This document shows, piece after piece, positions 30,077 through 55,123 of a stretch of 64,000 nucleotides of DNA. The position numbers and the translations under genes were made by a program. The DNA is from an uncultured bacterium (lineage in GTDB: Bacteria > Omnitrophota > Omnitrophia > Omnitrophales > Aquincolibacteriaceae): positions 16,865-80,864 of the forward strand of contig CAYLPP010000012.1 of assembly GCA_964385615.1 (NCBI GenBank). Direction: 5' to 3'. The notes under the pieces were generated by a model that saw nothing but the letters and a program-made list of their open reading frames with translations, made no database searches and was not told the origin of the DNA. Within the stretch, counting starts at the first letter, position 1. Each line of letters starts with the position of its first letter.

Positions 30077-30611
30077 CTAGAAGGGTTTCAAAATGAATGG
30101 AAAAAATCCGCCTCAACCCCGCCTGAGCCTTGCGGACATCCGCGTATTTGACATCAGGAAGCATATTCAGACTGCCCGAAGGGTGTCCAATTAAAGCGTC
30201 CCCTACAATCAAAATCTTCCGGTCCGTCAGATAAAAAGCGCATTCTCCGGGAGACTTTTGCTCTCTCAGGTGAATCACCTTAAGCCCGCATAAAAGATCC
30301 TGGCCGTCACGAAAAGTGAAATCCGCGCGTTCCCTCAAAAGAGTTTCGTCATGTTCATGAACCGCGATCGGGGTTTTCCATTTTTTTCTGAGATCATAAG
30401 CCATGCGCTCATGGTCTTTGTTGGAAAGATAGATCGCGTCAAACGCGCCATGGGATTCTATTTGCGCCAAAAGACTTCCATCCATAAAAACAGGGTCGAT
30501 CAGAACACGCTTTTTTCCGTCTGAGACCAGTGTGCCGTTAAAAAAATAGCCTTTCTCCGGCGACATCCAGCTCCACATCCAGATTCCTTCCGTGACTTTT
30601 TTAAGGGTCAT
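30006..30611 (-). CDS. MBL-fold metallo-hydrolase
   Basis: 201 aa. HxHxDH-like: LSNKDHERMAY ... IVGDALIGH. Confidence 0.7.
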   Translation of the reverse strand: MTLKKVTEGIWMWSWMSPEKGYFFNGTLVSDGKKRVLIDPVFMDGSLLAQIESHGAFDAIYLSNKDHERMAYDLRKKWKTPIAVHEHDETLLRERADFTFRDGQDLLCGLKVIHLREQKSPGECAFYLTDRKILIVGDALIGHPSGSLNMLPDVKYADVRKAQAGLRRIFSIHFETLLVGDGEFISENAYRKVEEYFERHC

Positions 30612-31453
30612 TATTTAAGCGCCTCCGCCAGAGCCAGATAATCTTTAAAAAGCAGTTCTTCCCCGCGCGCGGTGGGTTTAATCGCCAGACTCATGAAAAT
30701 TTTCTCCAGCTCTTCGCGGTTTTTTCCGGTTTTTGAATCCCGGCTCAGAATTCCAAGGAGAGTCTTCCGTCTTTGCGAAAAGGCTTTTTCGATTAGTTTA
30801 AAAACACGGGCTTCGAGTTTCGGTTCTAAAAGCTGCTTCTCTGGAAAGAAATCAAAAACCAGCACCGAAGAGCTGACCTCCGGCTGAGGCGTGAAACAAC
30901 CGCGGGAAACATCAAAGGCATGGCGCACATCCGCCGAATACCGCGCCGCCAGCGTTAAACGGCTGTAATCTTTCGAACCGGGAGAAGCGAGCACGCGGTC
31001 GGCAACCTCCGTCTGCATCATCAGCACTGCCTGAGAAATCATAAACCTCGCGTCCGCAAGGCAAAATAAAATCGGTGCCGTAATATAATAAGGCAGGTTG
31101 CTGACCACTTTGATCTTTTTCTTTTTCCCGGATTTTTCCCAAAATTTCTTAAAATCAAACCGGATAATATCATCTTCGATCACTTCAAGCAGACCGGTGC
31201 TTCCATATTCTTCCCGAAGAATTTCAACAAAACGGGGGTCTTTTTCCACCGCGATAACCTTGATTCCCCGGCCCAGAATTTCCCCGGTTAAAGCTCCAAG
31301 CCCGGGGCCGATTTCAAAAACGGTTTCCCCCTTTTTCAGCTCAAGCAGATCAACTATTTTTTTCTGAATATTCGGATCGATCAGCAGATGCTGGCCCATG
31401 TTTCCGCGAACGCTGAGCCCGTGTTTTTTCAGCAGTTCAATCTGAGTGGTCAT
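30611..31453 (-). CDS. rsmA: 16S rRNA (adenine1518/1519-N6)-dimethyltransferase
   Basis: GQHLLIDPNI...VFEIGPGLGALT...NLPYYIT motifs. Confidence 0.9.
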   Translation of the reverse strand: MTTQIELLKKHGLSVRGNMGQHLLIDPNIQKKIVDLLELKKGETVFEIGPGLGALTGEILGRGIKVIAVEKDPRFVEILREEYGSTGLLEVIEDDIIRFDFKKFWEKSGKKKKIKVVSNLPYYITAPILFCLADARFMISQAVLMMQTEVADRVLASPGSKDYSRLTLAARYSADVRHAFDVSRGCFTPQPEVSSSVLVFDFFPEKQLLEPKLEARVFKLIEKAFSQRRKTLLGILSRDSKTGKNREELEKIFMSLAIKPTARGEELLFKDYLALAEALK

Positions 31454-32418
31454 CAGCGGGAAGCCAATTTCTCGGCAAGACTCAATGAAGCGCGCAGGGA
31501 AACGGGGTCCGCCTGGCCTTTATAGGCAATATCAAAAGCAGTGCCGTGATCGGGGCTGGTGCGGATAAAAGGCAACCCCAGCGTGACATTCACGCCGTCA
31601 CGGAAGGAAATCATTTTAAACGGTGCCAGCCCCTGGTCATGATACATACTGATTACGGCATCAAACCGGCCTTCGTAGGCATCAAAGAATAGTTGATCCG
31701 CGGAGAGTGGTCCTGAAACTTTTAAGCCCCTTTTCCGGGCTTTATTTACCGCGGGCCTGATTTCCGCTTCATCCTCAGTCCCCGTTTCCCGCCCATGGGG
31801 GTTTAGCGCGCAAACCGCCAGCCGGGGGGTTTTGCGTAAAAATTTTTTGAAAAAATCGTGCGTCAGCTGAATTTTCTCAAAAACCAGTCCGCGTTTAATC
31901 AAAGTATTCACTTTTCTAATCGGCACATGAATCGTCGCCAGCGTTACTTTCAGTTTCGGCCCGTAAAACATCATGGCAAATTTTTTGACGCCCGCAACAT
32001 CAGCGAGATATTCCGTGTGTCCGGTAAAATTCGGATCCATCAGCCTCATAGAGGTTTTATTCAAGGGAGCCGTAACAATCGCTTTGATTTTTCCAGCCGC
32101 GGCAGAATAGGCCGCGGCTTCAAGCGCCGCGAAAGCGCCCTTAGCGTTGGAGAGTGAAACTTTTCCGGGATTTACCGGGCCTTCATAAACTTTCCAGAAA
32201 TAAACCGGAGCTTTTCCGATTTCAGAAAGCGAACGGATTACCGGGACCTTGATCTTTAAACCCGTTCTTTTTTGAAGAAGTTCAAAGGGTTCCTGCGAAC
32301 CGGTGATGAGATACTGGTATTGACGGGAAGGTTTAAACTGGCGGAAAGTTTTGGCGATAATTTCGGGGCCGACTCCGCCCGGGTCTCCCATCGTGACCGC
32401 GATCAGGGATTGTTTCAT
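31453..32418 (-). CDS. pdxA: 4-hydroxythreonine-4-phosphate dehydrogenase
   Basis: IAVTMGDPGGVGPEI ... GHTEYLA ... ISMYHDQGLAPFK PdxA signature, 321 aa. Confidence 0.9.
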   Translation of the reverse strand: MKQSLIAVTMGDPGGVGPEIIAKTFRQFKPSRQYQYLITGSQEPFELLQKRTGLKIKVPVIRSLSEIGKAPVYFWKVYEGPVNPGKVSLSNAKGAFAALEAAAYSAAAGKIKAIVTAPLNKTSMRLMDPNFTGHTEYLADVAGVKKFAMMFYGPKLKVTLATIHVPIRKVNTLIKRGLVFEKIQLTHDFFKKFLRKTPRLAVCALNPHGRETGTEDEAEIRPAVNKARKRGLKVSGPLSADQLFFDAYEGRFDAVISMYHDQGLAPFKMISFRDGVNVTLGLPFIRTSPDHGTAFDIAYKGQADPVSLRASLSLAEKLASR

Positions 32419-32431
32419 GAAGCGGAGTGAA

Positions 32432-33463
32432 TTACCGGATGGAAATGTAAGCGTTGCGCTTGAGAGAATTGATCCATTCCTGAAAACGCTTCATGGATTT
32501 TTCACGGAAAAGCCGGTCATAAATCAGCGGCTTGGCCTCCTCGAGCGTCTTGCGGAATTTTTCCTTCTTTTCTTCGAGTCTGAAAATATGGTAACCCATC
32601 GGCGTTTCAATCACGTCTGAAATCTGCCCGGGTTTCAGGGAAAAAATAACCTGGTTAATTTCGGGAATCATTTCTCCGGGGCGAATCCATTCACTGAGAC
32701 CGCCCATCTTGGCGCTGGTATCTTCTGAAGAATCCTGAGCAATTACGCCGAAATCTTCTCCGTCTGAAATACGCTTTTTAAGCTTTTCGATTTTATTTTT
32801 CGCGGTTTCATCCGTCAGACCTTTTTCACGGGCCTCTTCCGATTTCTTAACCGTCAAAGAACGGACTCTCACGGTGCCTTCACTGGAAAACTCATCCGCA
32901 TGCTGAGCATAGAACTCTTCAACTTCCAACGGTGAAACGACAACCTTCGCGCGCACTTCCATGTCTTGAAGATGGCGGATCACCGACTGCCTTTCAAGTC
33001 TTTCGCGCAAAGCCTGAAAACTCATACCTTCTTTTGAAAGCGCGTCTTCCATATCCATATCGCTTTTAAATTTTTTCTTAAAATCGCCAAGCATTCCTTC
33101 AACTTCAGCTTCATTCGGCTCAATTTTCTGCGCGATCGCTTCCTGATAAACGAGCTTATCTTCGATCAGCTGATTCAGGATTTTGCGCTTGGCATCCACC
33201 ATGGCTTCCATGAGGGCTTGACCGGAATATTGGCTTTTGTAATCCTCATAAACAGGGCGCATAACACCGTCAAGCTCGCTCTGGGTGATAGGGTCATCAT
33301 TAACGATGGCAACCACCTGGTCTAAAAGCTGGCGGTCAGCCCGGGCTGAAGGGGCCGAAAAAAAGGTCAAAATGATGAGTAAAATCAGGGGTTTCTTCAT
33401 AGAGGTTTTGGAGGGCTTTATTATGCCCCAGGGTCCGGCCTTTTTCAAGGCGCTTTTCCCCAA
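32432..33463 (-). CDS. SurA-like periplasmic peptidyl-prolyl cis-trans isomerase (parvulin domain)
   Basis: Signal peptide, SurA N-terminal-like chaperone region and a C-terminal PpiC domain (VIETPMGYHIFRLEEK). Confidence 0.8.
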   Translation of the reverse strand: MGKSALKKAGPWGIIKPSKTSMKKPLILLIILTFFSAPSARADRQLLDQVVAIVNDDPITQSELDGVMRPVYEDYKSQYSGQALMEAMVDAKRKILNQLIEDKLVYQEAIAQKIEPNEAEVEGMLGDFKKKFKSDMDMEDALSKEGMSFQALRERLERQSVIRHLQDMEVRAKVVVSPLEVEEFYAQHADEFSSEGTVRVRSLTVKKSEEAREKGLTDETAKNKIEKLKKRISDGEDFGVIAQDSSEDTSAKMGGLSEWIRPGEMIPEINQVIFSLKPGQISDVIETPMGYHIFRLEEKKEKFRKTLEEAKPLIYDRLFREKSMKRFQEWINSLKRNAYISIR

Positions 33464-33472: not shown

Positions 33473-35398
33473 CTAGTGCCCGCGAACGGAGCGTTCCCGT
33501 GGCGCTTTATTTGTCTTTTTGGACTCTTCTATAGCAGATTTGAGCATTTTGCAGTAAAGGTCAAAACCCACGGCATGAATAAATCCGCTTTGCTCGTGCC
33601 CCAGCAGGTTGCCCGCCCCCCGGATTTCAAGGTCCTCCAGAGCGATTTTGAAGCCGGAACCCAATTCCGTAAAACGCTCAATCGCCGCCAAACGCTTCTC
33701 CGCGTCTTTGGGCATAATGTAATTTTTAGGCACCATGAAATAAGCATAAGCCTGGCGTTTTTCATGATAACGCCCCACCCTTCCGCGCAGCTGGTACAAA
33801 TCCGCCAAACCAAACAGATCCGCGCGGTTTACGAAAATCGTATTCGCGTTAGGAATATCAATCCCTGACTCAATAATGTTTGTGGCAATCAGGCAGTCGA
33901 TTTTCTTTTCTTCAAACGCGTCCATCACCATTTCCAGTGACTCAGGATCCATCTGCCCGTGCGCCACGCCTAACCGCGCTTGCGGAACCAGTTCTTTCAG
34001 ATGCGCGTGGATTTTTTCAATTGAAGCCACGCGGTTGTGAATAAAATAAATTTGTCCGTTCCGGGCCAGTTCTTTTTCAAAAGCGCGTTTCACCGTCTGA
34101 TCGTTATATTCCAAAACATAAGTTTCAACCGGCAGACGCATTTTGGGCGGAGTGTTAATGGCCGACATATCGCGCACGCCCAGCAGAGCCATGTAAAGAG
34201 TGCGGGGAATCGGCGTGGCGGTAAGCGTTAAAATATCCACTTCCGCGCGCATATGCTTTAAGCGTTCTTTATGTTTAACGCCGAAGCGCTGTTCTTCGTC
34301 AATTACCAGCAGGCCGAGATCTTTAAATTGAATATCTTTGGAAAGCAGGCGGTGAGTTCCGATGACGATATCGGTTGTGCCTTCACGCACGGATACGGCA
34401 ACGTTCTTCAAATCTTTCGCTGAGCGGAAACGTGACAAAACCTCCACCGTGACCGGAAAATTTTTCATGCGCTTTTTAAAAACGTGGTAGTGCTGTTCGG
34501 CCAGCACTGTCGTCGGCACCAGCACCGCAACCTGCTTGCCCGCGTTCACCGCTTTAAAAGCCGCGCGGATGGCAACTTCGGTTTTACCGTAACCGACATC
34601 CCCGGCTAAAAGACGGTCCATTGGCTTATTGGATTCCATGTCGCGCTTGACTTCTTCAATCGCCCGCTTCTGATCCGGAGTTTCTTCAAACGGGAAATCA
34701 TCCTCAAACACTTTCTGCCAGGGGTGATCAGCCGGAAAGGCGTAGCCTCCGCCCATACTGCGCATTGCCTGAATCACAATCATTTCCCGCGCCACATTTT
34801 CAACCGCGCGTTTCGTTTTTTCTTTAAGCGTTTCCCACTCTTTACCGTGCAGTTTGGTCAGCCTGGGCGTATGACCGTGCCCGCCGATATAGCGCTCCAG
34901 CGGTTCATGCATCTCGATATAAATAATTTCACGGTTGGCGTATTCAATCGCCATATGGCGGAGGCGGTCACCTTTAACCTGAATCATTTTGGTGCCCAAA
35001 AAACGGCCGATGCCGTATTTCAAATGCACCACATAATCGCCGGGGCGCAAATCCTTGATCTGGGAAACCGGTTCAAAATCCTGATACTGGCCGGAAAGCC
35101 GACTCATTTTTTTCTCGAGAGTTTCAGTCACGGGAATCAGGAAGACTTCTTCGAAACTAGCCAGCGATTTGCCGTCATTAATGGAAAAATCACGGATGGA
35201 GGAAATGCGGTCGGCCTCAAACTCAAGGCGCACCGGGCTCCGGTAGGTCATGGGGTAAATGTCGAAAATGGCTCCGCGCCGGGCAAATTCGCCCGGCTTC
35301 ATCACCATATCCGTTTTTTGATAGCGGAGGTCACGCAGGAGGTCTTCAAGACCCTCCCGGTCAATTTCCTGTCCGGTTGTAAGCTTCCGCAGTTCCAT
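33473..35398 (-). CDS. mfd: transcription-repair coupling factor Mfd, domain-minimal form (RID + translocase only)
   Basis: Strong matches to three Mfd regions:
- D1b fragment [21 protein letters not shown];
- RNAP-interaction domain [16 protein letters not shown]...[11 protein letters not shown];
- superfamily-2 translocase [19 protein letters not shown]...[11 protein letters not shown]...[11 protein letters not shown]...QLRGRVGR.
The protein stops right after the TRG/hook region, with no D7. It begins mid-D1b, with no D1a/D2/D3. Confidence 0.85.
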
Positions 35399-35419
35399 AA
35401 CGGAAAGAAGGGCGCTTTC

Positions 35420-37276
35420 CTAAAACTTCCAGAAAACCGGAATAAGCGCGATTGAGAAAAGAAAGCAAATCAGGTTAAGAACGGGACCGACTTTAAGGTA
35501 GTCACTGAATTTATACCCGCCCGCGGCCTGCACCATAAGGTGGGTCTGATAACCTAACGGCGTGGAAAAACCCCACGACGCTGCGAATGTAACCGCCATC
35601 ACAAAAGGCATGGGACTCACACCCATCTTGTGCGCGGTCGCCAGCGCGATTGGAAAAATCAGAGCGGCCGCGGAATTGTTGGTCATAATTTCCGTCAAAA
35701 AATTAGTCAGAAGATAAATCGCGGCCAGAATCCCAACCAACCCCAAAGGCTGGGCCACACTCACCACACCCCCGGCAATCATCGCGGCCAGCCCGGTCTT
35801 CTGCATCGCGAAGCTGATACCGAATGAGCAGGCAATCGTAATCAACACGTCCCAGCGCATGGCCTTTTTAGCTTCCGCGCCCGGCAGCGCCCCGCACATC
35901 AGCGTCGCGATCACAGCGGCAAAAGCCATCTGAAGAATTCCGACTTTCTGCCCGCCGATCGAAAAATACCCCATCTCTCCGAGCACGGCGCCAATCACCA
36001 TCAGCAAAGTCACGCCCAGCACAATAAAGCTTTTCAAGCCTCCGCCCGGCGCGATATCTTTCAAATAAGACATTAAATAAAAATCCGTGGAATCTTTCCA
36101 CGAGCTAAGAAAATCTTCAGGCGCGAAAAGCAAAAGCGTATCGCCCGCGCGCAAAGTAATATCCCCGATCTTGGACTGAATCCTTTCGCCGTTCCGGTGA
36201 ATCGCGACAACTCCCGCGCCGTATTTCCCCCGGAAATGGCATTCTTTAACTGTTTTTCCCAAAATCGGAGAGCCGTGCGAAACTACGGCTTCAACTAAAT
36301 GCGCGCGCATTTTTGAAAAATCGCGCTCAAACATTTCATCCGCCGGAACCAGTCCCGGAATTTCCTGAAGATCCAGCACCGCGGACGTCACCCCCGCGAA
36401 CATCAGGCAATCCTCAGCTTCAAGAACCTGAGTGCTTGAAACAGGGCCCAGCGATTTACCCTCGCGTTCAATATCCACCAAGAAAAGGCCTTTCAGGTTT
36501 CTAAGGCCGGCATTTTTAACATTCTTTCCGACCAGCGGGCACCCTTTCTTCACGCGCATTTCAATGACGTATTCACGGCTGTGCTCCGTCACAAATTCGC
36601 TCACGCCCTGGCGGTCAGGCAATAAGTGCCTGCCGACAAAAGCGATATACAAAAGGCCGACAATCGTTACCGGAATCCCTACTTTCGCCAATTCGAAGAA
36701 CTGCATTCCGTGCATGCCGTTATTGATCATCAGACCGTGCACCACCAGGTTCGTGGAGGTTCCAATCAGCGTGATACAGCCGCCAAGCACGGTCGCGAAC
36801 GAAAGCGGAATAAAAAATTTAGACGCCGGCAGGTTGCTGTTACGCGTCCACTTTTTGATGATCGGCGTAAAAATCGCCACAATCGCCGTATTGTTGAGAA
36901 AAGCCGAAAGCCCGGCAATAGGCGCCATCATTTTAAGCATTAAAAGAGAAAGGTTGGGACGGCGGTGGTAAATACCTAAAAAGTTGAAGACCGCGGAATC
37001 AAGCGCTCCAGTGTTGCGGATCGCTTCACTTAACACAAACAGGAGAGCTACAGTAATCAAACCTTCATTCGAAAATCCGGCCAGGGCTTCTTTGGGAGTA
37101 ATAATGCCGGGAATGAGCAAAAAGGTCAGCGCGGTTGAAAGCACAAATTCCATCGTGCCCCAACTGCGGCCCAAAGCCACGACCATTCCCACAATAACTA
37201 TTAATGTCCAAACAGCCGGAAAATCCAAAAAACCCCTCCTGGGAGAGCCCCTGTAAGCAGTTTGGGATAATACCAC
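35420..37276 (-). CDS. SLC13/DASS family anion transporter with two central TrkA-C (RCK_C) domains
   Basis: Inverted-repeat TM halves with two cytoplasmic TrkA-C-like segments (VIEMRVKKGCPLVGKNV..., LVEAVVSHGSPILGKTV...). Confidence 0.85.
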   Translation of the reverse strand: MVLSQTAYRGSPRRGFLDFPAVWTLIVIVGMVVALGRSWGTMEFVLSTALTFLLIPGIITPKEALAGFSNEGLITVALLFVLSEAIRNTGALDSAVFNFLGIYHRRPNLSLLMLKMMAPIAGLSAFLNNTAIVAIFTPIIKKWTRNSNLPASKFFIPLSFATVLGGCITLIGTSTNLVVHGLMINNGMHGMQFFELAKVGIPVTIVGLLYIAFVGRHLLPDRQGVSEFVTEHSREYVIEMRVKKGCPLVGKNVKNAGLRNLKGLFLVDIEREGKSLGPVSSTQVLEAEDCLMFAGVTSAVLDLQEIPGLVPADEMFERDFSKMRAHLVEAVVSHGSPILGKTVKECHFRGKYGAGVVAIHRNGERIQSKIGDITLRAGDTLLLFAPEDFLSSWKDSTDFYLMSYLKDIAPGGGLKSFIVLGVTLLMVIGAVLGEMGYFSIGGQKVGILQMAFAAVIATLMCGALPGAEAKKAMRWDVLITIACSFGISFAMQKTGLAAMIAGGVVSVAQPLGLVGILAAIYLLTNFLTEIMTNNSAAALIFPIALATAHKMGVSPMPFVMAVTFAASWGFSTPLGYQTHLMVQAAGGYKFSDYLKVGPVLNLICFLFSIALIPVFWKF

Positions 37277-38295: not shown

Positions 38296-39072
38296 TTAAT
38301 TCCATCCGCCACCCCGCACATTCTTCCTGCGGTAGAGCTGACGGCGAGACTCTTCGTAACGGTTCAAATCATCCTGATAGCTTTGCTGTTGTCTGGAAAT
38401 AGCCTGCTCGAGCGAGGAAGTGTCCTGCCCTGCCGCTCTCTGCTGGTCTAACTGCGCCTGCATATTTCTGAGGTCGATTTCAGAACTCGCCATGGACCGG
38501 CGGTTACGGTCCACGCTGTCGTAATAATCCTGAAGATCGGCATCATTTTGGGGGTATTGCTGTTGGCGGTAAAAACCACGATTCTGATTGAACCCGTTGT
38601 TGTAGCCATTATTGTAACCGTTGTTATAACCATTCTGATTGTAGCCATTCTGCTGAGCCAGCTGTCTTTTGCGCCAGGCTAATTGCTGACTGCTCTGCTG
38701 ATAACGGTTTAAATCGTCCCGGTAGCTTTGCTGAAGGCTGGCGATAGTCTGCTGATCCGCGGAAGTGTCGAGGCCGGCCTGCTGATGCGCCTGCATCTGG
38801 CGGTAAGCTTCGTTGAGGTTGCGCTCTGAGCTTTGCACCGAATTGCGGTTCCGGTTCAAGCTTTCATAGTCCTGATCCAACACGGAATTGTCCTCATAAT
38901 AACCGTCATTGTAGCCATTGTTATAGCCGTTGGACTGAGAGTTCGAGGAGGAACCGCCCAGGACCTGCCCCAGAATATCCATGAATTTGTCACTTTTAGC
39001 GTAAGCAGGACTCACTGCCAACGCCATGAAAACCCCTGCCAAAAAGACCTTCTTAATCCAGCCTGCGCGCAT
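38296..39072 (-). CDS. secreted low-complexity protein with NGY/Q-rich internal tandem duplication
   Basis: Signal peptide MRAGWIKKVFLAGVFMALAVSPAYA. Two ~100-aa repeats, each starting with (NGYN)n and followed by a Q-rich helical stretch (...RNRNSVQSSERNLNEAYRQMQ... / ...RNRRSMASSEIDLRNMQAQLD...). Confidence 0.6.
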   Translation of the reverse strand: MRAGWIKKVFLAGVFMALAVSPAYAKSDKFMDILGQVLGGSSSNSQSNGYNNGYNDGYYEDNSVLDQDYESLNRNRNSVQSSERNLNEAYRQMQAHQQAGLDTSADQQTIASLQQSYRDDLNRYQQSSQQLAWRKRQLAQQNGYNQNGYNNGYNNGYNNGFNQNRGFYRQQQYPQNDADLQDYYDSVDRNRRSMASSEIDLRNMQAQLDQQRAAGQDTSSLEQAISRQQQSYQDDLNRYEESRRQLYRRKNVRGGGWN

Positions 39073-43675: not shown

Positions 43676-44470
43676 TCATTTTTTCTGACTCACAAACTCC
43701 CAGATATTAAAGCCTTCCCTACTTAAACCTGTTGGTTTTGACAGATCTTTTTTACTCAACCTTTGAATAAATTCGATCATTTCGCTTTTCGATTCACCCC
43801 TCTTAGATTTGCTGGTGCCCTTTTTATTCCAAACAAATGAGATTGCACCAACCAACAAATCTACCAACTGCAGGAGGTTATGGTCTTTAGCTTTCCCTTC
43901 GGAGATAGAACAATGTTCTAAATAACTTTCAACTCCATTCGTTTTTCTCATAAAGCGCCAGTTTGTGGTTTGCTCTAAAATCTCAACACCTCGATTGAAG
44001 TCAGAGGAGTACCTATCAATTATTATTTCAAAAAAATGATCCCCCTTATTTTTCATCAATCCATCACATAAGAAAGTACAATAAAATTTAACATACCCAG
44101 TCAAAGCATCGCCCCCCATGTAAACCTTGTGATTTAAAGGGTACTTAACCGTATCGACAACTAAACAACGAAAACGAATTCGACCGATATTTTCCAAAAA
44201 AAGCCGAAGGAATTCTTTATAACCTTCTCGATACCGTCCTTCCGTAGGAATTTTCTCCCACTTCAGCTCGTGCATTAAGCGGTATTTGGTTTTGATATCT
44301 GCTAGTTTTTTTTCGATCTTCTGGATTATTAAATCTGATTCATCAGGTTTTGTTGGGATGAAATATACAGCCCCCAGCACAAAGTATCTATGCCCTGATT
44401 GAGATGATTCATCGCAAAAGGCGATGATTTTCTTATCAGCGTGAATTTTGTCAGGTAAATTCAGATTCAT
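43676..44470 (-). CDS. DUF3800 family protein
   Basis: 264 aa. The two diagnostic DUF3800 motifs are present: N-terminal D-E-S (IIAFCDESSQSG) and C-terminal Q-x-x-D (NLLQLVDLLVGAI). Low GC. Confidence 0.65.
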   Translation of the reverse strand: MNLNLPDKIHADKKIIAFCDESSQSGHRYFVLGAVYFIPTKPDESDLIIQKIEKKLADIKTKYRLMHELKWEKIPTEGRYREGYKEFLRLFLENIGRIRFRCLVVDTVKYPLNHKVYMGGDALTGYVKFYCTFLCDGLMKNKGDHFFEIIIDRYSSDFNRGVEILEQTTNWRFMRKTNGVESYLEHCSISEGKAKDHNLLQLVDLLVGAISFVWNKKGTSKSKRGESKSEMIEFIQRLSKKDLSKPTGLSREGFNIWEFVSQKK

Positions 44471-44565
44471 TGGTGTTTTAGCGAAATTCCAATCCGTCTA
44501 AAGCCAGTTAGATCATTTTCTAATATATCCTAATGACAAAGGGAAAGTTTCCAGATTACTAGAAA

Positions 44566-45774
44566 TTAAAGTTTGCTAAACCAGGCGGTGAGGCGCTTGG
44601 AGGCTTCGGCGAGCTGGGCGTCGGAGGTGGCGAAGCTGAGGCGGATGTGCTTGTCGGAGCCAAAGGGCTTGCCGGGCACCACGGCCACAAGGGCTTCGGC
44701 CAGGAGGCGGTCGGAGAGGGTCACGGAGTCGATTTTGGAGTCGGCGCAGTTGACCCAGAGGTAGAAGGCGCCCTGAGCCTTGAAGGGCTTCAGGTGCGGG
44801 ACTTTGGAGATTTGTTCATAGAAGCTGGTGCGGCGCTTTTCGAAAACCTGGCGCAGTTTCTCGGCTTCTTCGTCCCCTTTTTCGAGGGCCACAACACCGC
44901 CGGCCTGCGAAAAAGAAGTGGGGTTGGAAGTCGAGTGGCTTTGAATGCTTCCCGCGGCGTCGGCGATTTCCTTGTTGGGGAAAGCGGCGTAACCCAGGCG
45001 CCAACCGGTCATGGCGTAGGCTTTGCTCATGCCGTTGATCACAATGGTGCGCTGGGCAATTTCAGGGTCGAGTGAAGCGATACAAACGTGTTTGCGGTTG
45101 TCGTAAATCAGCTTTTCGTAAATTTCGTCGCTGATCACCACGACTTTCGGGAAATCCTTGAGCACCTGCACCAGGGCCTGCATTTCTTCTTTGGAGTAAA
45201 CCGCGCCCGTGGGGTTTGAAGGTGAATTCAGGATCAAAACTTTGGTTTTATCGCTCAGGCCTTTGCGGAGAATTTCGGGCGTGAGTTTGAAGTCAGTCGT
45301 TTCGTCGGTATAAAGAAAAACGGATTTACCGCCCAGCACCGTGACCATTTCGGGGTAACTGAGCCAGAAAGGCGCGGGAATCGCGACTTCATCGCCTTCG
45401 TTTAAAAGGGCGAAGAGCACATTGAAAATAGAGTGTTTGGCGCCGGTTGAAACGATGATCTGGTTCGCGGGGTAAGTCAGGCCCTGATCTTTCAGGAGCT
45501 TGGCCGCGATGGCTTTGCGAAGGTCGATGGTGCCGACTGCGGGTGTGTATTTAGTTTGGCCTTTTTGAAGCGCGGTAATCGCGGCTTCTTTGATGAAGGA
45601 GGGTGTATCGAAGTCAGGCTCACCGGCGGACAGGGAAACAACGTCTTTGCCCTGCGCCTTCAGTTCAGCCGCCCTGGCCGCGATGGCCAGGGTGACTGAA
45701 GGAGCTACTGAAAGAACTCTGCGGGAGAGTTCGATTTTACTGTTCGTCCCCTTTAAAGAACTTGCGGAGGCCAC
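44566..45774 (-). CDS. pyridoxal phosphate-dependent aminotransferase (aspartate aminotransferase family)
   Basis: SLSAGEPDFDTP, the NSPSNPTG motif and the SKAYAMTGWRLGY lysine motif. The 5' end overlaps the rplQ 3' end by about 38 bp. Confidence 0.9.
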   Translation of the reverse strand: MASASSLKGTNSKIELSRRVLSVAPSVTLAIAARAAELKAQGKDVVSLSAGEPDFDTPSFIKEAAITALQKGQTKYTPAVGTIDLRKAIAAKLLKDQGLTYPANQIIVSTGAKHSIFNVLFALLNEGDEVAIPAPFWLSYPEMVTVLGGKSVFLYTDETTDFKLTPEILRKGLSDKTKVLILNSPSNPTGAVYSKEEMQALVQVLKDFPKVVVISDEIYEKLIYDNRKHVCIASLDPEIAQRTIVINGMSKAYAMTGWRLGYAAFPNKEIADAAGSIQSHSTSNPTSFSQAGGVVALEKGDEEAEKLRQVFEKRRTSFYEQISKVPHLKPFKAQGAFYLWVNCADSKIDSVTLSDRLLAEALVAVVPGKPFGSDKHIRLSFATSDAQLAEASKRLTAWFSKL

Positions 45775-46318
45775 TTAAAAAGCCGCCTTTCTTGTCAGAC
45801 TCTTTCTTCTCTTCAGAAGAAGCCGTCTTTTTGTCTTCTTTACGGGATTCGGATTTGGTTTCTTCCTTCGCCTTTTTCTTCGGCTCAGGAGCAACTTCTT
45901 TCACGCTTTCAGCGGGCTTTTTGGCCTTTTCCTTCTTGGCTTTCTTCTTTTCAGGCGATTCAATCACCGCCGTGAACTCAAGAAGGGCCATATCGGCCGC
46001 GTCACCCACACGGTTGCCCATGCGAAGCACGCGAGTATAACCGCCCTTGCGCTCTTTAAAGTGCGGGGCGATCTGCGTGATCAGCTGGTGCGCGGTCTGG
46101 GAGTTGCCGAGTTTGGAAATAAGCAGACGGCGCGAATGAAGACTGCCTTCTTTCGCAATCTGAACCATGCGATCCGCGAAAGCGCTGGCTTCCTTAGCCT
46201 TGGCGAAGGTGGTCTGGATCTGCTTGTGAATCACAAGATTGCGGACCAGGTTCCTCAACAGGGCCTTGCGGTGATTGCTCTTAACTCCAAGTTTTCTACG
46301 TAGTCTTCTGTGGCGCAT
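45737..46318 (-). CDS. rplQ: 50S ribosomal protein L17 with Lys-rich C-terminal extension
   Basis: MRHRRLRRKLGVKSNHRKALLRNL ... GGYTRVLRMGNRVGDAA, then an approximately 70-aa K/E/A-rich tail. Confidence 0.9.
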   Translation of the reverse strand: MRHRRLRRKLGVKSNHRKALLRNLVRNLVIHKQIQTTFAKAKEASAFADRMVQIAKEGSLHSRRLLISKLGNSQTAHQLITQIAPHFKERKGGYTRVLRMGNRVGDAADMALLEFTAVIESPEKKKAKKEKAKKPAESVKEVAPEPKKKAKEETKSESRKEDKKTASSEEKKESDKKGGFLSGLRKFFKGDEQ

Positions 46319-46330
46319 TGTTTTCTACCT

Positions 46331-47335
46331 TTAAGCTCCGGCCTGGGCGGGAGCGGACTTTTTCCCCTTCAAACGTTCCTCGATGTTCATGCCCAGCGTC
46401 AGGTTCATCTGGACTAAAATCGCGGAAATTTCAGAGAGAGATTTTTTTCCAAAATTCTTATATTTCAGCATCTGGGCTTCGGTCTTCTGAATCAGGTCGC
46501 CGATGGTCTTGATATTGGCGGCTTCCAGGCAGTTCGCACTGCGGACAGAAAGTTCCAGTTCGCTGATGGGCTTGTTGATCATTTCCTTAAAGCCCTGGTC
46601 TTCTTCCTCTTCCTCTTCTTCTTCAATCGGAATTTCACCGTAGTTGACGAAGATATCCATGTGCCGCTGGGCGATGTTAGAAGCATAAAGCAGAGCTTCT
46701 TCAGGAGTCACCGCGCCGTTGGTCCAGATTTCGAGGATCAGGCGGTCATAGTCAGTGATCTGACCGACACGGGTGTCTTCCACAAGGAAATTCACCTTGG
46801 TGATCGGAGAGAAAATCGAGTCCACCGGGATCATGCCGATCGGAGCGCCTTCCTGCTTGTTGCGCTCAGCGGGCAAATAACCGCGGCCGCGGCCGACTTC
46901 CATCTCAATGCGGACCGGCACATCCTTGGTCAGGGTGCAGATGACAAGGTCAGGGTTGATGACTTCAACCGTTTCATCAGCCTGAATGTCCTTGGCGGTA
47001 AGCGGGCCCTTTTTCTTGGACTCAGCCACAATCTTCTTGGGGCCTTTGCCGTGATATTTGAGCACCAGCTTCTTGATGTTCAGAACGATCTGGGCGCCGT
47101 CTTCCATAACGCCTTCCATCGAAGAGAATTCGTGCTGCATACCTTCAACCTTGATGCTGGTGATAGCAGCGCCTTCGATCGAGGAAATCAAAACGCGGCG
47201 AAGCGCGTTGCCGATCGTGGTGCCGTAACCGCGTTCAAACGGCTCAGCCGTGAACTTGCCGTAAGTCGGGGTTAAAGTGGCTTTATCAACTTCAAGCCGC
47301 TTCGGCATTTCAAAAGTTTTCCAACGAATTCCCAT
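46331..47335 (-). CDS. rpoA: DNA-directed RNA polymerase subunit alpha
   Basis: 334 aa with N-terminal dimerisation domain and C-terminal domain (ELSVRSANCLEAANIKTIGDL). Confidence 0.95.
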   Translation of the reverse strand: MGIRWKTFEMPKRLEVDKATLTPTYGKFTAEPFERGYGTTIGNALRRVLISSIEGAAITSIKVEGMQHEFSSMEGVMEDGAQIVLNIKKLVLKYHGKGPKKIVAESKKKGPLTAKDIQADETVEVINPDLVICTLTKDVPVRIEMEVGRGRGYLPAERNKQEGAPIGMIPVDSIFSPITKVNFLVEDTRVGQITDYDRLILEIWTNGAVTPEEALLYASNIAQRHMDIFVNYGEIPIEEEEEEEEDQGFKEMINKPISELELSVRSANCLEAANIKTIGDLIQKTEAQMLKYKNFGKKSLSEISAILVQMNLTLGMNIEERLKGKKSAPAQAGA

Positions 47336-47400
47336 TTTAATCCTCCTGTGGATTATTCAAAACTGATTATTTCCCCCCTTGCGGGGACAACTCAACTTTG

Positions 47401-48024
47401 CTACTTGGAGAACAATTCGACGATCAGAGATTCTTCAACCGGCAGAGCCGCGTCAGCCTTGGTCGGTACACGCACCATCGTGGCTTCAAGATTTTTCGCG
47501 TCTAACTGAAGCCATTCGGGAACCGTGAGGTCTTTCCACTTTTCAAGGCTCGCCTGCACGCGCTTCTGCGTAGCTTCCTTCTTACGCGCCGCGATCTTGT
47601 CACCGGGGCGGACGATAAAAGAAGGAATATTCACCACTCGGCCGTTCACAAAAATCAGGCCGTGGCTGACCATCTGACGGGCTTCGCGGCGGGTAGCCGA
47701 AAAGAGCAGACGGTAAACAACGTTATCAAGACGGCGTTCCAGAAGTTCGATCAGCTGTTCGCCGGTCACACCGCGCTTCTGAGCGGCGCGGTCGAAGAAC
47801 ACGCGGAACTGGCGCTCCATGAGGCCGTAAATCCGCTTGAGCTTCTGTTTTTCACGAAGCTGCACACCATAGTCGGAAAGCTTACCGCGGCCTTTGCCGT
47901 GCTGACCGGGCACCTGGTTAATGCGCTTGTCGTATTTTTCATCTGTCGCGCGGCGGCCCTTGAGCCCAAGGTTCACACCTTCGCGGCGGTGTAATTTGAC
48001 TACGGGTCCTGTATAGCGTCCCAT
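47401..48024 (-). CDS. rpsD: 30S ribosomal protein S4
   Basis: MGRYTGPVVKLHRREG ... S4 domain. Confidence 0.95.
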   Translation of the reverse strand: MGRYTGPVVKLHRREGVNLGLKGRRATDEKYDKRINQVPGQHGKGRGKLSDYGVQLREKQKLKRIYGLMERQFRVFFDRAAQKRGVTGEQLIELLERRLDNVVYRLLFSATRREARQMVSHGLIFVNGRVVNIPSFIVRPGDKIAARKKEATQKRVQASLEKWKDLTVPEWLQLDAKNLEATMVRVPTKADAALPVEESLIVELFSK

Positions 48025-48026
48025 GA

Positions 48027-48398
48027 TTAAACTCTCCTTCTCTTCGGCGGACGGCAGCCGTTATGCGGAATCGGGGTCATGTCATGGATCGCGCTGACGG
48101 CAAGACCGGCAGCCTGAAGCGCGCGAATCGCTGATTCACGGCCGGCGCCCGGACCCTTGACGAACACTTCCACTTCCTTCATGCCGTGTTCAAGCGCCTT
48201 CTTGGCAGCTTGCTCGGAAGCAATCTGGGCCGCGAAAGGCGTGGATTTTTTGGATCCCTTGAAACCCGCGGCTCCGGCAGACGACCAGCAAAGGGCGTTG
48301 CCTTTCGGGTCCGTGATGGTCACAAAGGTGTTGTTGAAGCTCGCGAGAATATGCACCACTCCGCGGGCGACTTGTTTAATTTTTTTCTTCTTAGCCAT
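48027..48398 (-). CDS. rpsK: 30S ribosomal protein S11
   Basis: [24 protein letters not shown]. Confidence 0.95.
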
Positions 48399-48426
48399 GA
48401 TTTCTCCCTGATTCCTTAGTCAAATC

Positions 48427-48813
48427 TTATTTAGGCGCGGGCGGCTTTTTGGAAAGACCACTCATAGTCTTCCGCGGCCCTTTGCGCGTTCTTGCGTTAG
48501 TGTGGCTGCGCTGACCGCGAACCGGCAGGCCCTTCAAGTGGCGCGTACCGCGGTAGCAGCGAATGTCCATCAAGCGTTTAATGTTCTGCTGGACTTCACG
48601 GCGCAAGTCACCCTCAACCTTGCAGGTTTTCTGGATGACGGTGGTGATGGCCGAGATTTCTTTTTCGGTCAAATCCTTGGCGCGTTTATTGGGGTCCACA
48701 CCCGCTTCCTGAAGCACGTCAACGGCGTTAGACTTGCCGATTCCGTACAGATAACGAAGCGCGATGACCGTTCTTTTTTCTCTCGGAATATCAACACCAA
48801 AAATACGAGGCAT
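48427..48813 (-). CDS. rpsM: 30S ribosomal protein S13
   Basis: [14 protein letters not shown] ... [14 protein letters not shown]. Confidence 0.95.
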
Positions 48814-48861
48814 TTAATTGCTCCTTTTTATCCTTGAAGCGTTTTTAGCTTCAAGTTGACT

Positions 48862-48975
48862 TTTCTTTCTCTCAGCCCTGCCGCTGCTTGTGCTTAGGAT
48901 TCGTGCAGATGACATACACAACCCGTTTGCGGCGGACAATCTTACAATTTTCACAAATACGCTTAACAGAACTGC
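48862..48975 (-). CDS. rpmJ: 50S ribosomal protein L36
   Basis: Translates [37 protein letters not shown] (37 aa, Zn-ribbon C-x2-C...C-x). Not in the ORF track because it is under 60 aa. Confidence 0.9.
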
Positions 48976-48995
48976 GAACTTTCATAAATTCCTCA

Positions 48996-49214
48996 TTATT
49001 TAATTCGGAAAGTGATGCGCCCGCGCGTCAAATCGTACGGCGAAAGCTCCACTTTCACTTTATCACCCGGCAAAATGCGGATGTAATTCATTCTCATCTT
49101 ACCGGAAATATGAGCTAAAACCTTGTGCCCGTTCTCAAGCTCTACCCGAAACATCGCGTTGGGCAGGGGCTCGATCACTACGCCCTCAACTTCAATGGCA
49201 TCATCTTTAGGCAT
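48996..49214 (-). CDS. infA: translation initiation factor IF-1
   Basis: [41 protein letters not shown]. Confidence 0.95.
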
Positions 49215-49217
49215 AAG

Positions 49218-49970
49218 TTAGCTTTTGTCCCCGGTTAAATTCACGTAGCCGTTGTCAAAAAAAGCCACGGTATCTTCATAGTGACTGGCCCATTTACGGT
49301 CCTTCGTCACTACCGTCCAGCCATCCGGCAGTGTTTCCACCGCGCAGCTGCCTTCCGTTACCATCGGCTCTATGGCCAGGACAAGGCCACTTTCAATTTT
49401 CGGCCCGTGCCCTGCTCGGCCGTAATTTGGAACCTGCGGCTCTTCATGAAGCGCGCGCCCAATTCCGTGTCCCACATAATCCCGCACCACCTGAAAACCG
49501 CGGGACTCAATCAATTGCTGAATTTTTTCCGACAGATCGCCGATTCTGCATCCGGGCTTATACGCGTCAAGCCCAGCCATAAATGAATCACGGGCTGTAT
49601 CGATCAGTTTCTGTCTTACAGGAGAAACTTTCCCGACGGCCCAGCTTCTTGCCGCGTCAGCATAGTAACCGCTGACTTTGGATCCGATATCAAAACTTAC
49701 GATATCGCCTTCTTTTAACTTTTTCGGGCCCGGAATCCCGTGCACCACTTCTTCGTTCAGCGAGATGCACGCCGTTTTTTTGAAACCGCGGTAACCTTTA
49801 AACGCCGGCTCACCGCCCGATTCCCGGATAATCGCTTCGGCCATCGCGTCAAGCTCATCGGTTGTAACCCCGGGCTTGATTTCCTGCCGGACCTTCGCAA
49901 AAACTTTTCTTAAAATCTCGGAAGCTTCCTGGATGATCTGTATTTCTCGCTTGGACTTCAGCGAAATCAT
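49218..49970 (-). CDS. map: type I methionine aminopeptidase
   Basis: Metal-binding residues in ...DIVSFDIG... HGIG ... LAIEPM. Confidence 0.95.
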   Translation of the reverse strand: MISLKSKREIQIIQEASEILRKVFAKVRQEIKPGVTTDELDAMAEAIIRESGGEPAFKGYRGFKKTACISLNEEVVHGIPGPKKLKEGDIVSFDIGSKVSGYYADAARSWAVGKVSPVRQKLIDTARDSFMAGLDAYKPGCRIGDLSEKIQQLIESRGFQVVRDYVGHGIGRALHEEPQVPNYGRAGHGPKIESGLVLAIEPMVTEGSCAVETLPDGWTVVTKDRKWASHYEDTVAFFDNGYVNLTGDKS

Positions 49971-50623
49971 GCCAACTTTAACTTCTCAAAAAGCTTCTTA
50001 ATTTCCGCCTGAAGTTCAGGCACATCAAAGTCGCCCGGCACTTCATGGAGCTGTCCCTGTTTCGCGTAATAATCAATCAGGGGCTTTGTTTCTTTGTCAT
50101 ACATTTTAAGCCGGTTCTGAATCGTAGCCGGCTCATCATCTTTACGCTGCGTGAGTTTCTCACCGCAGTTATCGCAAATCCCCTCAACCTTCGGGCGGAT
50201 ATTGCGGATATGATAATTTCCATTGCACTTAGTGCAGACCCGGCGGCCTGAAAGCCGTTCCAGGATCATTTTTTCCGAAGTCGCGAAATTCAAAACCACG
50301 TCGATCTTCGTATTTTCTTTTTTCAAAAAACCATCGAGCGCTTCCGCCTGACCGATCGTGCGCGGATAACCGTCGAGAATAAATCCCCGGTCAAGACCGG
50401 AACGCTTCATCTCCTCGAACATCATCGCGTTAACAAGGTCATCAGAAACCAATCCGCCTTTTTCAATCACTTCCTTGGCTTTTTTCCCAAGTTCAGTGTT
50501 GCCGCGAATATGGCCTCTTAAAATTTCGCCCGTTGAAAGCTGAGGACAGCCGTACTTTTTGCTGATAATGACCGCGTGAGTACCCTTACCTGCTCCCGGA
50601 GGGCCCAACAAGATCATCTTCAT
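49967..50623 (-). CDS. adk: adenylate kinase (Zn-binding lid)
   Basis: ILLGPPGAGKGT P-loop. Lid with C-x2-C...C-x2-C. Confidence 0.95.
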   Translation of the reverse strand: MKMILLGPPGAGKGTHAVIISKKYGCPQLSTGEILRGHIRGNTELGKKAKEVIEKGGLVSDDLVNAMMFEEMKRSGLDRGFILDGYPRTIGQAEALDGFLKKENTKIDVVLNFATSEKMILERLSGRRVCTKCNGNYHIRNIRPKVEGICDNCGEKLTQRKDDEPATIQNRLKMYDKETKPLIDYYAKQGQLHEVPGDFDVPELQAEIKKLFEKLKLA

Positions 50624-51981: not shown

Positions 51982-51999
51982 TTTCCGCCAAGATCCTGT

Positions 52000-52455: not shown

Positions 52456-52460
52456 GAAAT

Positions 52461-53027: not shown

Positions 53028-53386
53028 TAGAACTTGATCCCGCCCTGACGGAGCGATTCAGCAAGAGCTTTGACCCGGCCATGATAAAGATAACCGCCGC
53101 GGTCAAACGCGATTTGAGTAATTCCTTTTTCCTTAAGCTTGGACGCAAAAACTTCACCGAGCTTTTCTGATTTCTTCACTTTGCCCGACTTCGGCGCGGA
53201 CTTCGAAAAATCTTTATCCAGCGTGGAAATCGAAACAAGAGTCTTCGCATTGACATCATCTACCACCTGAACATAAATGTTCTTGGCGGAGCGGTGAACC
53301 GCGAGGCGCGGACGCTCAGGCGTGCCGACCATCTTCTTGCGAATTCTTCCGTGTCTTTTCTGTCTTGCAAGGTCTTTTGTATTCAT
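53027..53386 (-). CDS. rplR: 50S ribosomal protein L18
   Basis: [18 protein letters not shown] ... [17 protein letters not shown]. Confidence 0.9.
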
Positions 53387-53412
53387 AATTTTATCGTCCT
53401 TAATTCCGGCTA

Positions 53413-53949: not shown

Positions 53950-53959
53950 AGTTAAACTC

Positions 53960-54358: not shown

Positions 54359-54368
54359 TGTTTTCTCC

Positions 54369-55122: not shown

Positions 55123-55123
55123 T

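What the first reader, a model, noticed from the sequence alone, without database searches (positions are those of the whole stretch)
33473..35398. A domain-minimal Mfd has no UvrA-recruiting or autoinhibitory modules
The 641-aa protein starts inside the D1b region and contains the RNAP-interaction domain and the complete RecG-like translocase. It ends immediately after the TRG/hook motif. It therefore lacks D1a, D2 (UvrA binding), most of D1b, D3 and D7 (the autoinhibitory clamp) of canonical about 1150-aa Mfd. There is no coding room upstream (the SLC13 transporter ends 21 bp away) or downstream (surA-like starts 10 bp away). Such a protein could still displace stalled RNAP but could not couple to NER in the canonical way. 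It would be a naturally 'derepressed' translocase.
Basis: partly seen in the sequence, partly recalled or inferred. Interest (0 to 1): 0.55.

Follow-up and report, generated by a model that had tools for sequence, protein, structure and literature searches.

The report
Minimal Mfd that keeps its UvrA-binding domain

Summary
The 641-aa ORF at 33473-35398 (-) exists as described and is tightly flanked by other genes. It is a genuine Mfd: it scores above NCBI's curated TIGR00580 cutoff and has an RNAP-interaction domain, a complete translocase and the TRG motif. Residues 1-92 are D2, the UvrA-binding module (Pfam PF17757; aligns to E. coli Mfd 131-219), not D1b. The architecture is D2, a flexible linker, D4, D5 and D6. 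D1a, D1b, D3 and D7 are missing. This is not an artefact. At least 240 protein clusters (about 620-680 aa when complete), almost all Omnitrophota where named, share the architecture, and eight loci share mfd-surA-pdxA-ksgA synteny. Sensitive domain HMMs find no stray D1, D3 or D7 nearby. Two of the three known UvrA-contact residues (E. coli R165, R181) are essentially invariant, and F185 is replaced. Published annotation tables show Omnitrophota genomes with single-copy mfd plus uvrA, uvrB and uvrC, and one with no TRCF (D7) domain at all. So "naturally lacks the D2-D7 autoinhibitory clamp" is supported, and "cannot couple to NER" is not. Engineered E. coli MfdΔD7 performs transcription-coupled repair, so this is most likely a clamp-less but repair-competent Mfd. 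It is a new variant of a known kind, of moderate interest.

The parts
33473..35398 (-). mini-mfd gene, 641 aa: D2 - linker - D4 (RID) - D5 - D6, with no D1a, D1b, D3 or D7
   Evidence: ORF. TIGR00580 scores 872.5 bits against a cutoff of 800. PDB phmmer hits to Mfd structures at E about 1e-180. Foldseek best matches are Mfd structures.
35123..35398 (-). D2 (aa 1-92), the UvrB-homology domain that binds UvrA in E. coli Mfd
   Evidence: PF17757 matches aa 5-91 at E=2e-20. Aligns to E. coli Mfd 131-219, 4DFC_A and UvrB domain 2. D2 HMM E=1e-25. R41 (=Ec R165) and R57 (=Ec R181) are invariant, and 13/92 positions are invariant in 120 relatives. pLDDT about 80.
35063..35122 (-). Flexible D2-RID linker (aa 93-112), replacing the ~267 residues of D1b+D3 in E. 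coli
   Evidence: 0/20 invariant positions. pLDDT about 35 for aa 101-112. The connector is 33-34 aa in group A and 23-29 aa in group B, against 267 in E. coli.
34844..35062 (-). D4, the RNA polymerase interaction domain (aa 113-185)
   Evidence: PF02559 CarD_TRCF_RID. D4 HMM E=6e-21. Matches RID structures 6YHZ and 3MLQ. The L499 equivalent is I/L/F.
34139..34843 (-). Relay helix and translocase lobe TD1/D5 (aa 186-420), with Walker A GxGKT and Walker B DEEQ
   Evidence: PF00270 DEAD matches aa 240-401. The equivalents of W550, K634 and E730 are invariant. pLDDT 80-94.
33515..34138 (-). Translocase lobe TD2/D6 with TRG motif and hook helices (aa 421-628)
   Evidence: PF00271 matches aa 441-544. 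The R929 and R953 equivalents are invariant, the Q963 equivalent is Q in 119/120, and hook I970 is replaced by an invariant V. Aligns to E. coli Mfd up to residue 988.
33476..33514 (-). Short unconserved basic C-terminal tail (aa 629-641) in place of D7
   Evidence: 0/13 invariant positions. Relatives have 0-32 residues after the Ec988 equivalent. No PF03461 TRCF hit.
30611..33463 (-). Conserved downstream genes surA-like (32432-33463), pdxA (31453-32418) and ksgA/rsmA (30611-31453), which mark the orthologous locus
   Evidence: Pfam hit for the SurA-like gene. The pdxA and ksgA/rsmA names are my own reading of the translations and were not scanned against a family library. The order mfd-surA-pdxA-ksgA is found in the window and in all seven short-form loci L002-L008. 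The closest full-length relative is also followed by surA.

Best explanation
This is the lineage-typical Mfd (transcription-repair coupling factor) of Omnitrophota, a derived minimal form made of D2 (UvrA-binding), a ~20-35 residue flexible tether, the RNAP-interaction domain D4, and the D5/D6 ATP-driven dsDNA translocase with TRG motif and hook helices. Proposed mechanism: the RID docks on the beta subunit of a stalled RNA polymerase. The translocase binds upstream duplex DNA and pushes the polymerase forward until the complex collapses. D2 has no D7 to mask it, so it is permanently exposed and can hand the site to UvrA2B. The D2-D7 clamp and the D1-D3 body that gate motor activity and UvrA access in E. 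coli do not exist here. Any remaining self-restraint would come from the conserved relay-helix/hook contact (W550/I970 equivalents). Shown here: the architecture, intact catalytic and TRG residues, conservation of the D2 patch, conservation of the form across a large clade, and the absence of the missing domains nearby. Inferred: RNAP displacement, constitutive motor activity, UvrA binding and TCR competence.
For: Architecture. Motor, RID and TRG residues are invariant in 120 group-A and 119 group-B relatives. D2 is constrained (14% invariant positions, against 0% in the linker and tail), and the most conserved stretch (aa 41-57) corresponds to the UvrA-contact segment R165-F185. The R165 and R181 equivalents are present in 120/120 and 120/120, and in 115/119 and 119/119. 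In E. coli these arginines are also buried in the D2-D7 interface, so their retention without D7 points to the UvrA role (PMC3025350). The form is conserved: 240 listed clusters, nearly all 620-680 aa, none with PF03461. At 50% clustering only three short clusters sit among full-length Mfds. Synteny holds in 8/8 loci. NER partners exist: Omnitrophota genomes 58 and 231 of Seymour et al. 2023 each have uvrA, uvrB, uvrC and mfd at count 1. Genome 58 (94% complete) has PF02559, PF17757 and the UvrA Pfams but no PF03461. Experimental precedent: E. coli MfdΔD7 catalyses TCR in vitro and in vivo, the D2 surface is essential, and removing D7 or D1-3 derepresses the motor. Isolated D2 co-crystallised with a UvrA fragment (4DFC). 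Thermus Mfd is already constitutively derepressed (PMC13453472).
Against: The third reported UvrA-contact residue, F185, is not conserved: it is E/R/Q in group A and D/E in group B. No UvrA from this genome or any short-form genome was examined, so cognate binding is untested. I did not verify directly that genomes 58 and 231 of the published tables carry the short form; this is inferred from the missing TRCF in genome 58. In E. coli the whole BHM (D1a-D2-D1b) was deleted or D2 was point-mutated, so whether D2 works without D1a/D1b in a full Mfd has not been tested. The AF2 model is only moderate (pLDDT 71.8, TD2 about 45-65) and says nothing reliable about D2 docking. The rest of this genome outside the 64-kb window was not searched.
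Confidence: 0.62

Rival explanations
1. One reading: an Mfd stripped of both the UvrA-recruiting and the autoinhibitory modules. It would be a pure RNAP-displacing or anti-roadblock translocase uncoupled from nucleotide excision repair, like the Buchnera and Wigglesworthia Mfds.
For: D7, D1a, D1b and D3 are absent. F185 is not conserved. Natural Mfds uncoupled from NER exist (PMC3488230; PMC13453472).
Against: D2 is present and conserved, with the R165 and R181 equivalents essentially invariant. The known uncoupled Mfds lost D2 and occur in organisms without UvrABC. Omnitrophota genomes keep uvrA, uvrB and uvrC.
Confidence: 0.15
2. D2 is retained for a purpose other than UvrA recruitment, for example as a structural cap, a contact with RNAP or DNA, or binding to another partner. 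The protein would then act mainly in transcription termination and roadblock clearance.
For: F185 is replaced by charged residues. The family has its own invariant motif T51-Y52-R53 that is absent from E. coli Mfd and UvrB. There is no direct UvrA evidence.
Against: The conserved patch coincides with the UvrA-contact segment shared by Mfd and UvrB. uvrABC co-occur with mfd. No alternative partner is suggested by gene neighbourhood, which holds surA, pdxA and ksgA.
Confidence: 0.18
3. Split gene, pseudogene or assembly artefact: the missing domains are encoded elsewhere or hidden by a frameshift.
For: Only 64 kb of this genome was available. One Omnitrophota-labelled MAG contig encodes a full-length Mfd (P0254/P0275).
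Against: The same length and architecture occur in 240 clusters from many independent assemblies. Only 7 codons are open upstream, and both neighbouring genes are complete. tblastn and domain HMMs find no D1a, D1b, D3 or D7 in any frame of the window or within +-10 kb in seven relatives, and the positive controls work. The weak hits lie in ribosomal proteins L24 and S4. A 94%-complete Omnitrophota genome has one mfd and no TRCF domain.
Confidence: 0.03

Closest known systems
Canonical Mfd / TRCF (E. coli 2EYQ, M. smegmatis 6AC6; TIGR00580)
   Same: D2, the RID, the D5/D6 translocase, the TRG motif and the relay and hook helices. Identity over D4-D6 is about 50%. All catalytic residues are conserved. 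It scores above the TIGR00580 cutoff.
   Different: It lacks D1a, D1b, D3 and D7, which is about 45% of the E. coli protein. There is no D2-D7 clamp, and no D1-D3 body to be repositioned around DNA during loading. F185 is replaced.
Engineered E. coli MfdΔD7 and Mfd D7AAA (Smith 2007; Manelyte 2010, PMC3025350)
   Same: No D7, so D2 is unmasked. These engineered forms have derepressed ATPase and translocase activity and still perform TCR in vitro and in vivo.
   Different: The engineered forms keep D1a, D1b and D3, whereas the natural form also lacks those. The engineered forms are laboratory constructs, whereas this one is fixed in a whole lineage.
Atypical Mfd of Buchnera, Wigglesworthia and Arabidopsis chloroplast (PMC3488230; PMC13453472)
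   Same: Natural Mfd variants that have lost part of the autoinhibitory clamp.
   Different: They show the opposite pattern. They lost the UvrB-homology module including D2, reportedly keep D7, and occur where UvrABC is absent. The Omnitrophota form keeps D2, loses D7 and co-occurs with UvrABC.
Thermus thermophilus Mfd (PMC13453472, 2026)
   Same: It is reported as constitutively derepressed, which shows that autoinhibition is not universal.
   Different: Thermus Mfd still has all domains (978 aa) and its clamp is merely dynamic. In the Omnitrophota form the clamp components are physically absent.
RecG
   Same: A homologous SF2 translocase core with a TRG motif (NCBIfam RecG models score up to about 408 bits, all below their curated cutoffs; 1GM5 E=1e-74).
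   Different: The mini-Mfd has no wedge domain and has a RID and D2 instead. The RecG model scores fall well below their cutoffs.

Membership tests
Mfd / transcription-repair coupling factor (TIGR00580) | Whole-protein score above the curated equivalog cutoff | tested here: met
   TIGR00580.2 scores 872.5 bits against a cutoff of 800. The E. coli-type full-length model NF007966 scores 663.7 against a cutoff of 1329, so that one is not met, as expected for a half-length protein.
Mfd / transcription-repair coupling factor (TIGR00580) | RNA polymerase interaction domain (D4, CarD_TRCF_RID) N-terminal to the motor | tested here: met
   PF02559 at E=1.7e-9. D4 HMM at E=6e-21. The L499 equivalent is hydrophobic. 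Binding to RNAP itself was not testable.
Mfd / transcription-repair coupling factor (TIGR00580) | RecG-like SF2 translocase with Walker A and B, motif VI and the TRG motif (R929, R953, Q963) | tested here: met
   The K634, E730, R929 and R953 equivalents are invariant in 120/120 relatives and the Q963 equivalent is Q in 119/120. In group B, K634, E730, R953 and Q963 are 119/119 and R929 is 117/119.
Mfd / transcription-repair coupling factor (TIGR00580) | UvrA-binding D2 with contact residues R165, R181 and F185 | tested here: inconclusive
   The D2 fold and sequence are present (PF17757 at E=2e-20). The R165 and R181 equivalents are conserved, but the F185 position is E/R/Q/D. UvrA binding was not testable.
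Mfd / transcription-repair coupling factor (TIGR00580) | C-terminal D7 (Pfam PF03461 TRCF) forming the autoinhibitory clamp with D2 | tested here: not met
   There is no PF03461 hit in this protein or in any of the 240 listed relatives. The D7 HMM finds nothing in the window or flanks. The full-length control P0275 does show PF03461.
Mfd / transcription-repair coupling factor (TIGR00580) | UvrB-homology module D1a/D1b and the D3 domain | tested here: not met
   E. coli residues 1-126 and 220-470 have no counterpart. The D1a and D1b HMMs find nothing, and the weak D3 HMM hits fall only within the helicase lobes.
RecG | Score above the RecG equivalog cutoffs, and an N-terminal wedge domain | tested here: not met
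   The best RecG model scores 407.6 bits against a cutoff of 718. The N-terminus is D2 plus RID, not a wedge domain.

The most novel reading that the evidence does not exclude
A whole bacterial phylum runs transcription-coupled repair with a 'core' Mfd in which D2 is tethered directly to the RID and motor. If so, the D1/D3 scaffold, the D7 clamp and the multi-step ATP-dependent loading and proofreading seen in E. coli are dispensable in vivo. The protein would be a constitutively active, constitutively UvrA-accessible coupling factor. The replacement of F185 would reflect a re-wired D2-UvrA interface or, alternatively, a new D2 partner.
Probability: 0.35. Interest if true: 0.6.

Novelty: new variant of a known kind. 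Interest (0 to 1): 0.45.

Why it matters
Mfd is a model for autoinhibited molecular motors and is a proposed 'anti-evolution' drug target. Its regulation by the D2-D7 clamp and by relocation of D1-D3 has been worked out almost entirely in E. coli. This lineage-wide natural form keeps only D2, the RID and the motor. That makes it a natural minimal construct of 641 aa, convenient for biochemistry and cryo-EM. It could show which domains are truly required for RNAP displacement and UvrA hand-off. It complements the opposite natural truncation in endosymbionts and adds to the 2026 finding that autoinhibition is not universal. It also has a practical consequence for annotation: Mfd in Omnitrophota genomes and related MAGs is about half the usual length and should not be flagged as partial.

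Tried and rejected
1) Hidden domains in other frames or nearby. I ran tblastn with E. coli Mfd and its missing pieces against the window and against seven relatives' loci. I also ran HMMs of D1a, D1b, D3 and D7, built from 147 full-length Mfds, against six-frame translations. Nothing was found. The marginal hits lie in ribosomal proteins L24 and S4. 2) UvrA or UvrB in the window or the Omnitrophota loci: none was found, which is uninformative given the small fraction of each genome sampled. 3) Literature on Mfd in Omnitrophota: there is no paper combining Mfd or UvrA with Omnitrophota terms, and no mention in two Omnitrophota genomics papers. Only the supplementary annotation tables were informative. 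4) Other short Mfds among the representatives (P0215 at 929 aa, P0161 at 1006 aa) proved to be contig-end partials. 5) Monophyly of the short forms: an NJ tree on D4-D6 groups subgroups A and B together but with one full-length intruder, and bootstrap support is only 16/40. One loss versus two therefore remains unresolved (one search timed out). 6) Locating the window's own contig by exact protein look-up failed.

Full report
OBSERVATION. The window has an ATG-started ORF of 641 codons at 33473-35398 on the minus strand. The upstream gene (35420-37276, -) is a complete CitMHS/TrkA_C transporter. Its TAG stop lies 21 nt before the mfd ATG and in the same frame, so only seven codons are open upstream. 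The downstream gene is SurA-like. Its earliest possible start (TTG 33463) is 9 nt after the mfd stop, and the likelier ATG (33400, which begins a signal peptide MKKPLILLI) is 72 nt after it. The coordinates, the length and the 'no coding room' statement are therefore correct.

Pfam finds PF17757 'UvrB interaction domain' at aa 5-91 (E=2e-20), the RID PF02559 at aa 117-161, and DEAD plus Helicase_C at aa 240-544. It finds no PF03461 TRCF. A search against PDB sequences aligns aa 7-95 to E. coli Mfd 131-219, to the crystallised D2 fragment 4DFC_A and to UvrB domain 2. It aligns aa 111-628 to E. coli Mfd 471-988. tblastn with E. coli Mfd (fetched) gives the same two blocks and nothing else of significance in the 64-kb window. 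So the protein begins at D2, the UvrA-binding module, and not 'inside D1b'. The architecture is D2 (1-92), linker (93-112), D4/RID (113-185), relay helix plus TD1/D5 (186-420), TD2/D6 with TRG and hook (421-628), and a 13-residue tail. The missing parts are D1a, D1b, D3 and D7. The protein passes NCBI's curated Mfd equivalog TIGR00580 (872.5 bits, cutoff 800) and fails the RecG models. An AlphaFold2 model built from a 60-sequence family alignment is of moderate quality (pLDDT 71.8). D2, the RID and TD1 are confident, and the linker at 101-112 has very low confidence, consistent with a flexible tether. Its best structural matches are Mfd crystal and cryo-EM structures (E down to 4e-56), followed by RecG.

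NOT AN ARTEFACT, BUT A LINEAGE-WIDE FORM. The 120 best 90%-identity clusters for this protein (65-100% identity) are all 628-683 aa with the same Pfam set and no TRCF. The names that sources give them are overwhelmingly Candidatus Omnitrophica/Omnitrophota. A search of 1.84 billion 50%-identity representatives returns only two other short, single-stretch hits (P0121 at 640 aa, P0123 at 642 aa) among 148 longer Mfds of 929-1380 aa that match in two or three stretches. Two of the shorter ones, P0215 (929 aa) and P0161 (1006 aa), are annotated as contig-end partials. A second search seeded with the Omnitrophica WOR_2 protein from L008 (51% identical to the window's) returns another 120 short clusters of 574-669 aa. 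Their names include Omnitrophica WOR_2, Ca. Zapsychrus exili and Ca. Aceula lacicola. A few MAGs carry other PVC labels (Planctomycetales, L007; Verrucomicrobiae, P0077).

In the window and in all seven short-form genome loci that were fetched (L002-L008, 51-87% identity), the gene is followed by surA-like, pdxA and ksgA. The pdxA and ksgA names in the window are my reading of the translations and of their cross-matches among loci, not a family-library result. I built HMMs for each E. coli-defined domain from 147 diverse full-length Mfds. The D2 and D4 models hit every short-form ORF (E from 1e-19 to 1e-26). The D1a, D1b and D7 models hit nothing significant in any frame of the window or within +-10 kb of the seven relatives. 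The two marginal hits fall in ribosomal proteins L24 and S4. The frameshift, split-gene and pseudogene alternatives are therefore rejected for the neighbourhood.

ORIGIN. Over D4-D6 the short forms are 53-100% identical to each other and at most 61% identical to full-length Mfds. They form two subgroups. Group A includes the window, and group B includes WOR_2. The two differ in connector length: 33-34 residues in A and 23-29 in B, against 267 in E. coli. In a neighbour-joining tree the two groups cluster together, but one full-length sequence (P0254, 1112 aa) sits inside the cluster and only 16/40 bootstraps recover monophyly. Whether there was one ancestral loss or two is unresolved. P0254 is itself labelled Ca. 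Omnitrophota, although it lies on a 3.8-kb contig. Its cluster mate P0275 carries the full Pfam set including PF03461 and is also followed directly by a surA-like gene. This supports the view that mini-mfd is the ortholog of canonical mfd at the same locus, reduced by deletion within or near the base of the phylum.

FUNCTIONAL RESIDUES. The equivalents of Walker A K634, Walker B E730, R929, TRG R953, relay-helix W550 and hook I970 (V or I) are invariant or nearly so in both subgroups. TRG Q963 is Q in 119/120 of group A and 119/119 of group B, and the RID L499 position stays hydrophobic. D2 is under constraint: 13/92 positions are invariant, against 0/20 in the linker and 0/13 in the tail. Its most conserved stretch (aa 41-57: R41, G42, D46, P49, T51, Y52, R53, P55, R57) corresponds to the E. 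coli segment R165-F185. [quoted passage not shown] The R165 and R181 equivalents are present in 120/120 and 120/120 of group A and in 115/119 and 119/119 of group B. The F185 position is E/R/Q in group A and D/E in group B. The motifs G-E-F/Y-x-x-R-G and P-x-R-hydrophobic-D/E are shared with UvrB domain 2. In E. coli, R165 and R181 are also buried against D7. Their retention where D7 does not exist argues that they are kept for the other known function, UvrA contact. This is an inference.

IS THE PARTNER THERE? UvrA and UvrB are not encoded in the window or in the fetched loci, which is uninformative. Published per-genome annotation tables for Omnitrophota (Seymour et al. 2023, PMC10066038, Source Data Figs 3-5) help here. 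Both genomes whose KO lists are readable (IDs 58 and 231) have K03701 uvrA, K03702 uvrB, K03703 uvrC and K03723 mfd, each at count 1. Genome 58 is a 93.9%-complete, 2.26-Mb MAG of order B26-G9. It lists PF02559, PF17757 and the UvrA families PF17755 and PF17760, but not PF03461; the list runs from PF03449 straight to PF03462. Other genomes list TIGR00580 together with TIGR00630 and, in some cases, TIGR00631. So NER enzymes co-occur with a single, TRCF-less Mfd in this phylum. One caveat is that I could not confirm directly that those particular genomes carry the short form.

MECHANISM (most likely; the steps are inferred by homology). The RID binds the beta subunit of a stalled polymerase. TD1 and TD2 translocate on upstream DNA via the TRG motif and dislodge the polymerase. 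D2 sits on a flexible tether, is never masked, and recruits UvrA2B. The experimental precedents are strong. Deleting D7 or D1-3 derepresses E. coli Mfd. MfdΔD7 still performs strand-specific repair in vitro and in vivo, whereas the D2 surface/BHM is essential. Thermus Mfd is constitutively derepressed. Any residual self-control may come from the relay-helix/hook contact, which is a second autoinhibition node (PMC3488230) and whose residues are conserved here. From my own knowledge of the E. coli cryo-EM loading pathway (Kang et al. 2021), the ATP-dependent relocation of D1-D3 around DNA cannot occur in this protein. Target discrimination and processivity may therefore differ.

COMPARISON AND NOVELTY. 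The known natural atypical Mfds (Buchnera, Wigglesworthia, Arabidopsis chloroplast) lost the UvrB-homology module including D2. They occur where UvrABC is absent, and D7 is discussed as their remaining regulator. The Omnitrophota form shows the reverse pattern: D2 is kept, D7 and the scaffold are lost, and UvrABC is present. I found no description of it in the searchable literature. Databases simply name it 'transcription-repair coupling factor'. It is a new variant of a known kind, not a new kind of system.

VERDICT. Interest is moderate (0.45).

Noticed in passing
window 2807-17614 (-): A giant ORF of 4935 aa. Its only Pfam hit is a methyltransferase domain (PF08241) at aa 3298-3381. Very long proteins are a reported Omnitrophota trait; titles and abstracts seen cover this.
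   Followed up: partly
window 38296-39072 (-): A 258-aa predicted secreted protein with N/G/Y-rich runs (NGYNNGYNNGYNNGF). It also has an internal duplication of a ~70-aa Q-rich segment (…LNRNRNSVQSSE…YRDDLNRYQQS… and …VDRNRRSMASSE…YQDDLNRYEES…), seen in the translation.
   Followed up: no
window 35398-35422 (-): The upstream transporter and mfd are in the same reading frame, separated by one TAG and 21 nt, with no obvious Shine-Dalgarno motif before the mfd ATG. This is probably incidental. The transporter is not conserved upstream of mini-mfd in relatives.
   Followed up: partly
window 30611-33463 (-); L002-L008: A surA-like, pdxA, ksgA/rsmA cluster lies directly downstream of mfd and is conserved across short-form loci down to 51% Mfd identity. 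From my own knowledge, the gene order surA-pdxA-ksgA matches the E. coli operon.
   Followed up: partly
groups A and B of short Mfds (P0001-P0120; P0279-P0398): The D2-to-RID connector has two discrete length classes: 33-34 aa in the window's subgroup and 23-29 aa in the WOR_2-type subgroup. This could mean two independent deletions of D1b-D3, or one deletion followed by an indel.
   Followed up: partly
L084 229-3567 (+) (P0275/P0254): A full-length 1112-aa Mfd with a TRCF domain, labelled Ca. Omnitrophota, is the nearest full-length relative of the short forms and is also followed by surA. It is either a lineage that kept the ancestral form or a mis-binned contig.
   Followed up: partly
window ~44000-64000 (-): A large ribosomal-protein and translation gene cluster. 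S4 is confirmed by Pfam. S8, L5, L24, L14, S17, L29, L16 and S3 are identified from my reading of the translations. A 698-aa ORF at 61543-63639 is probably EF-G, and a 334-aa ORF at 46331-47335 is probably RpoA; both guesses rest on position and length only.
   Followed up: no
window 33476-35419 (-), aa ~294-550 of the Mfd ORF: The HMM built for Mfd domain D3 gives weak matches (E about 4e-4 to 0.1) inside the two RecA-like lobes of every short Mfd. This suggests a remote similarity between D3 and the helicase lobes, not a remnant of D3.
   Followed up: no
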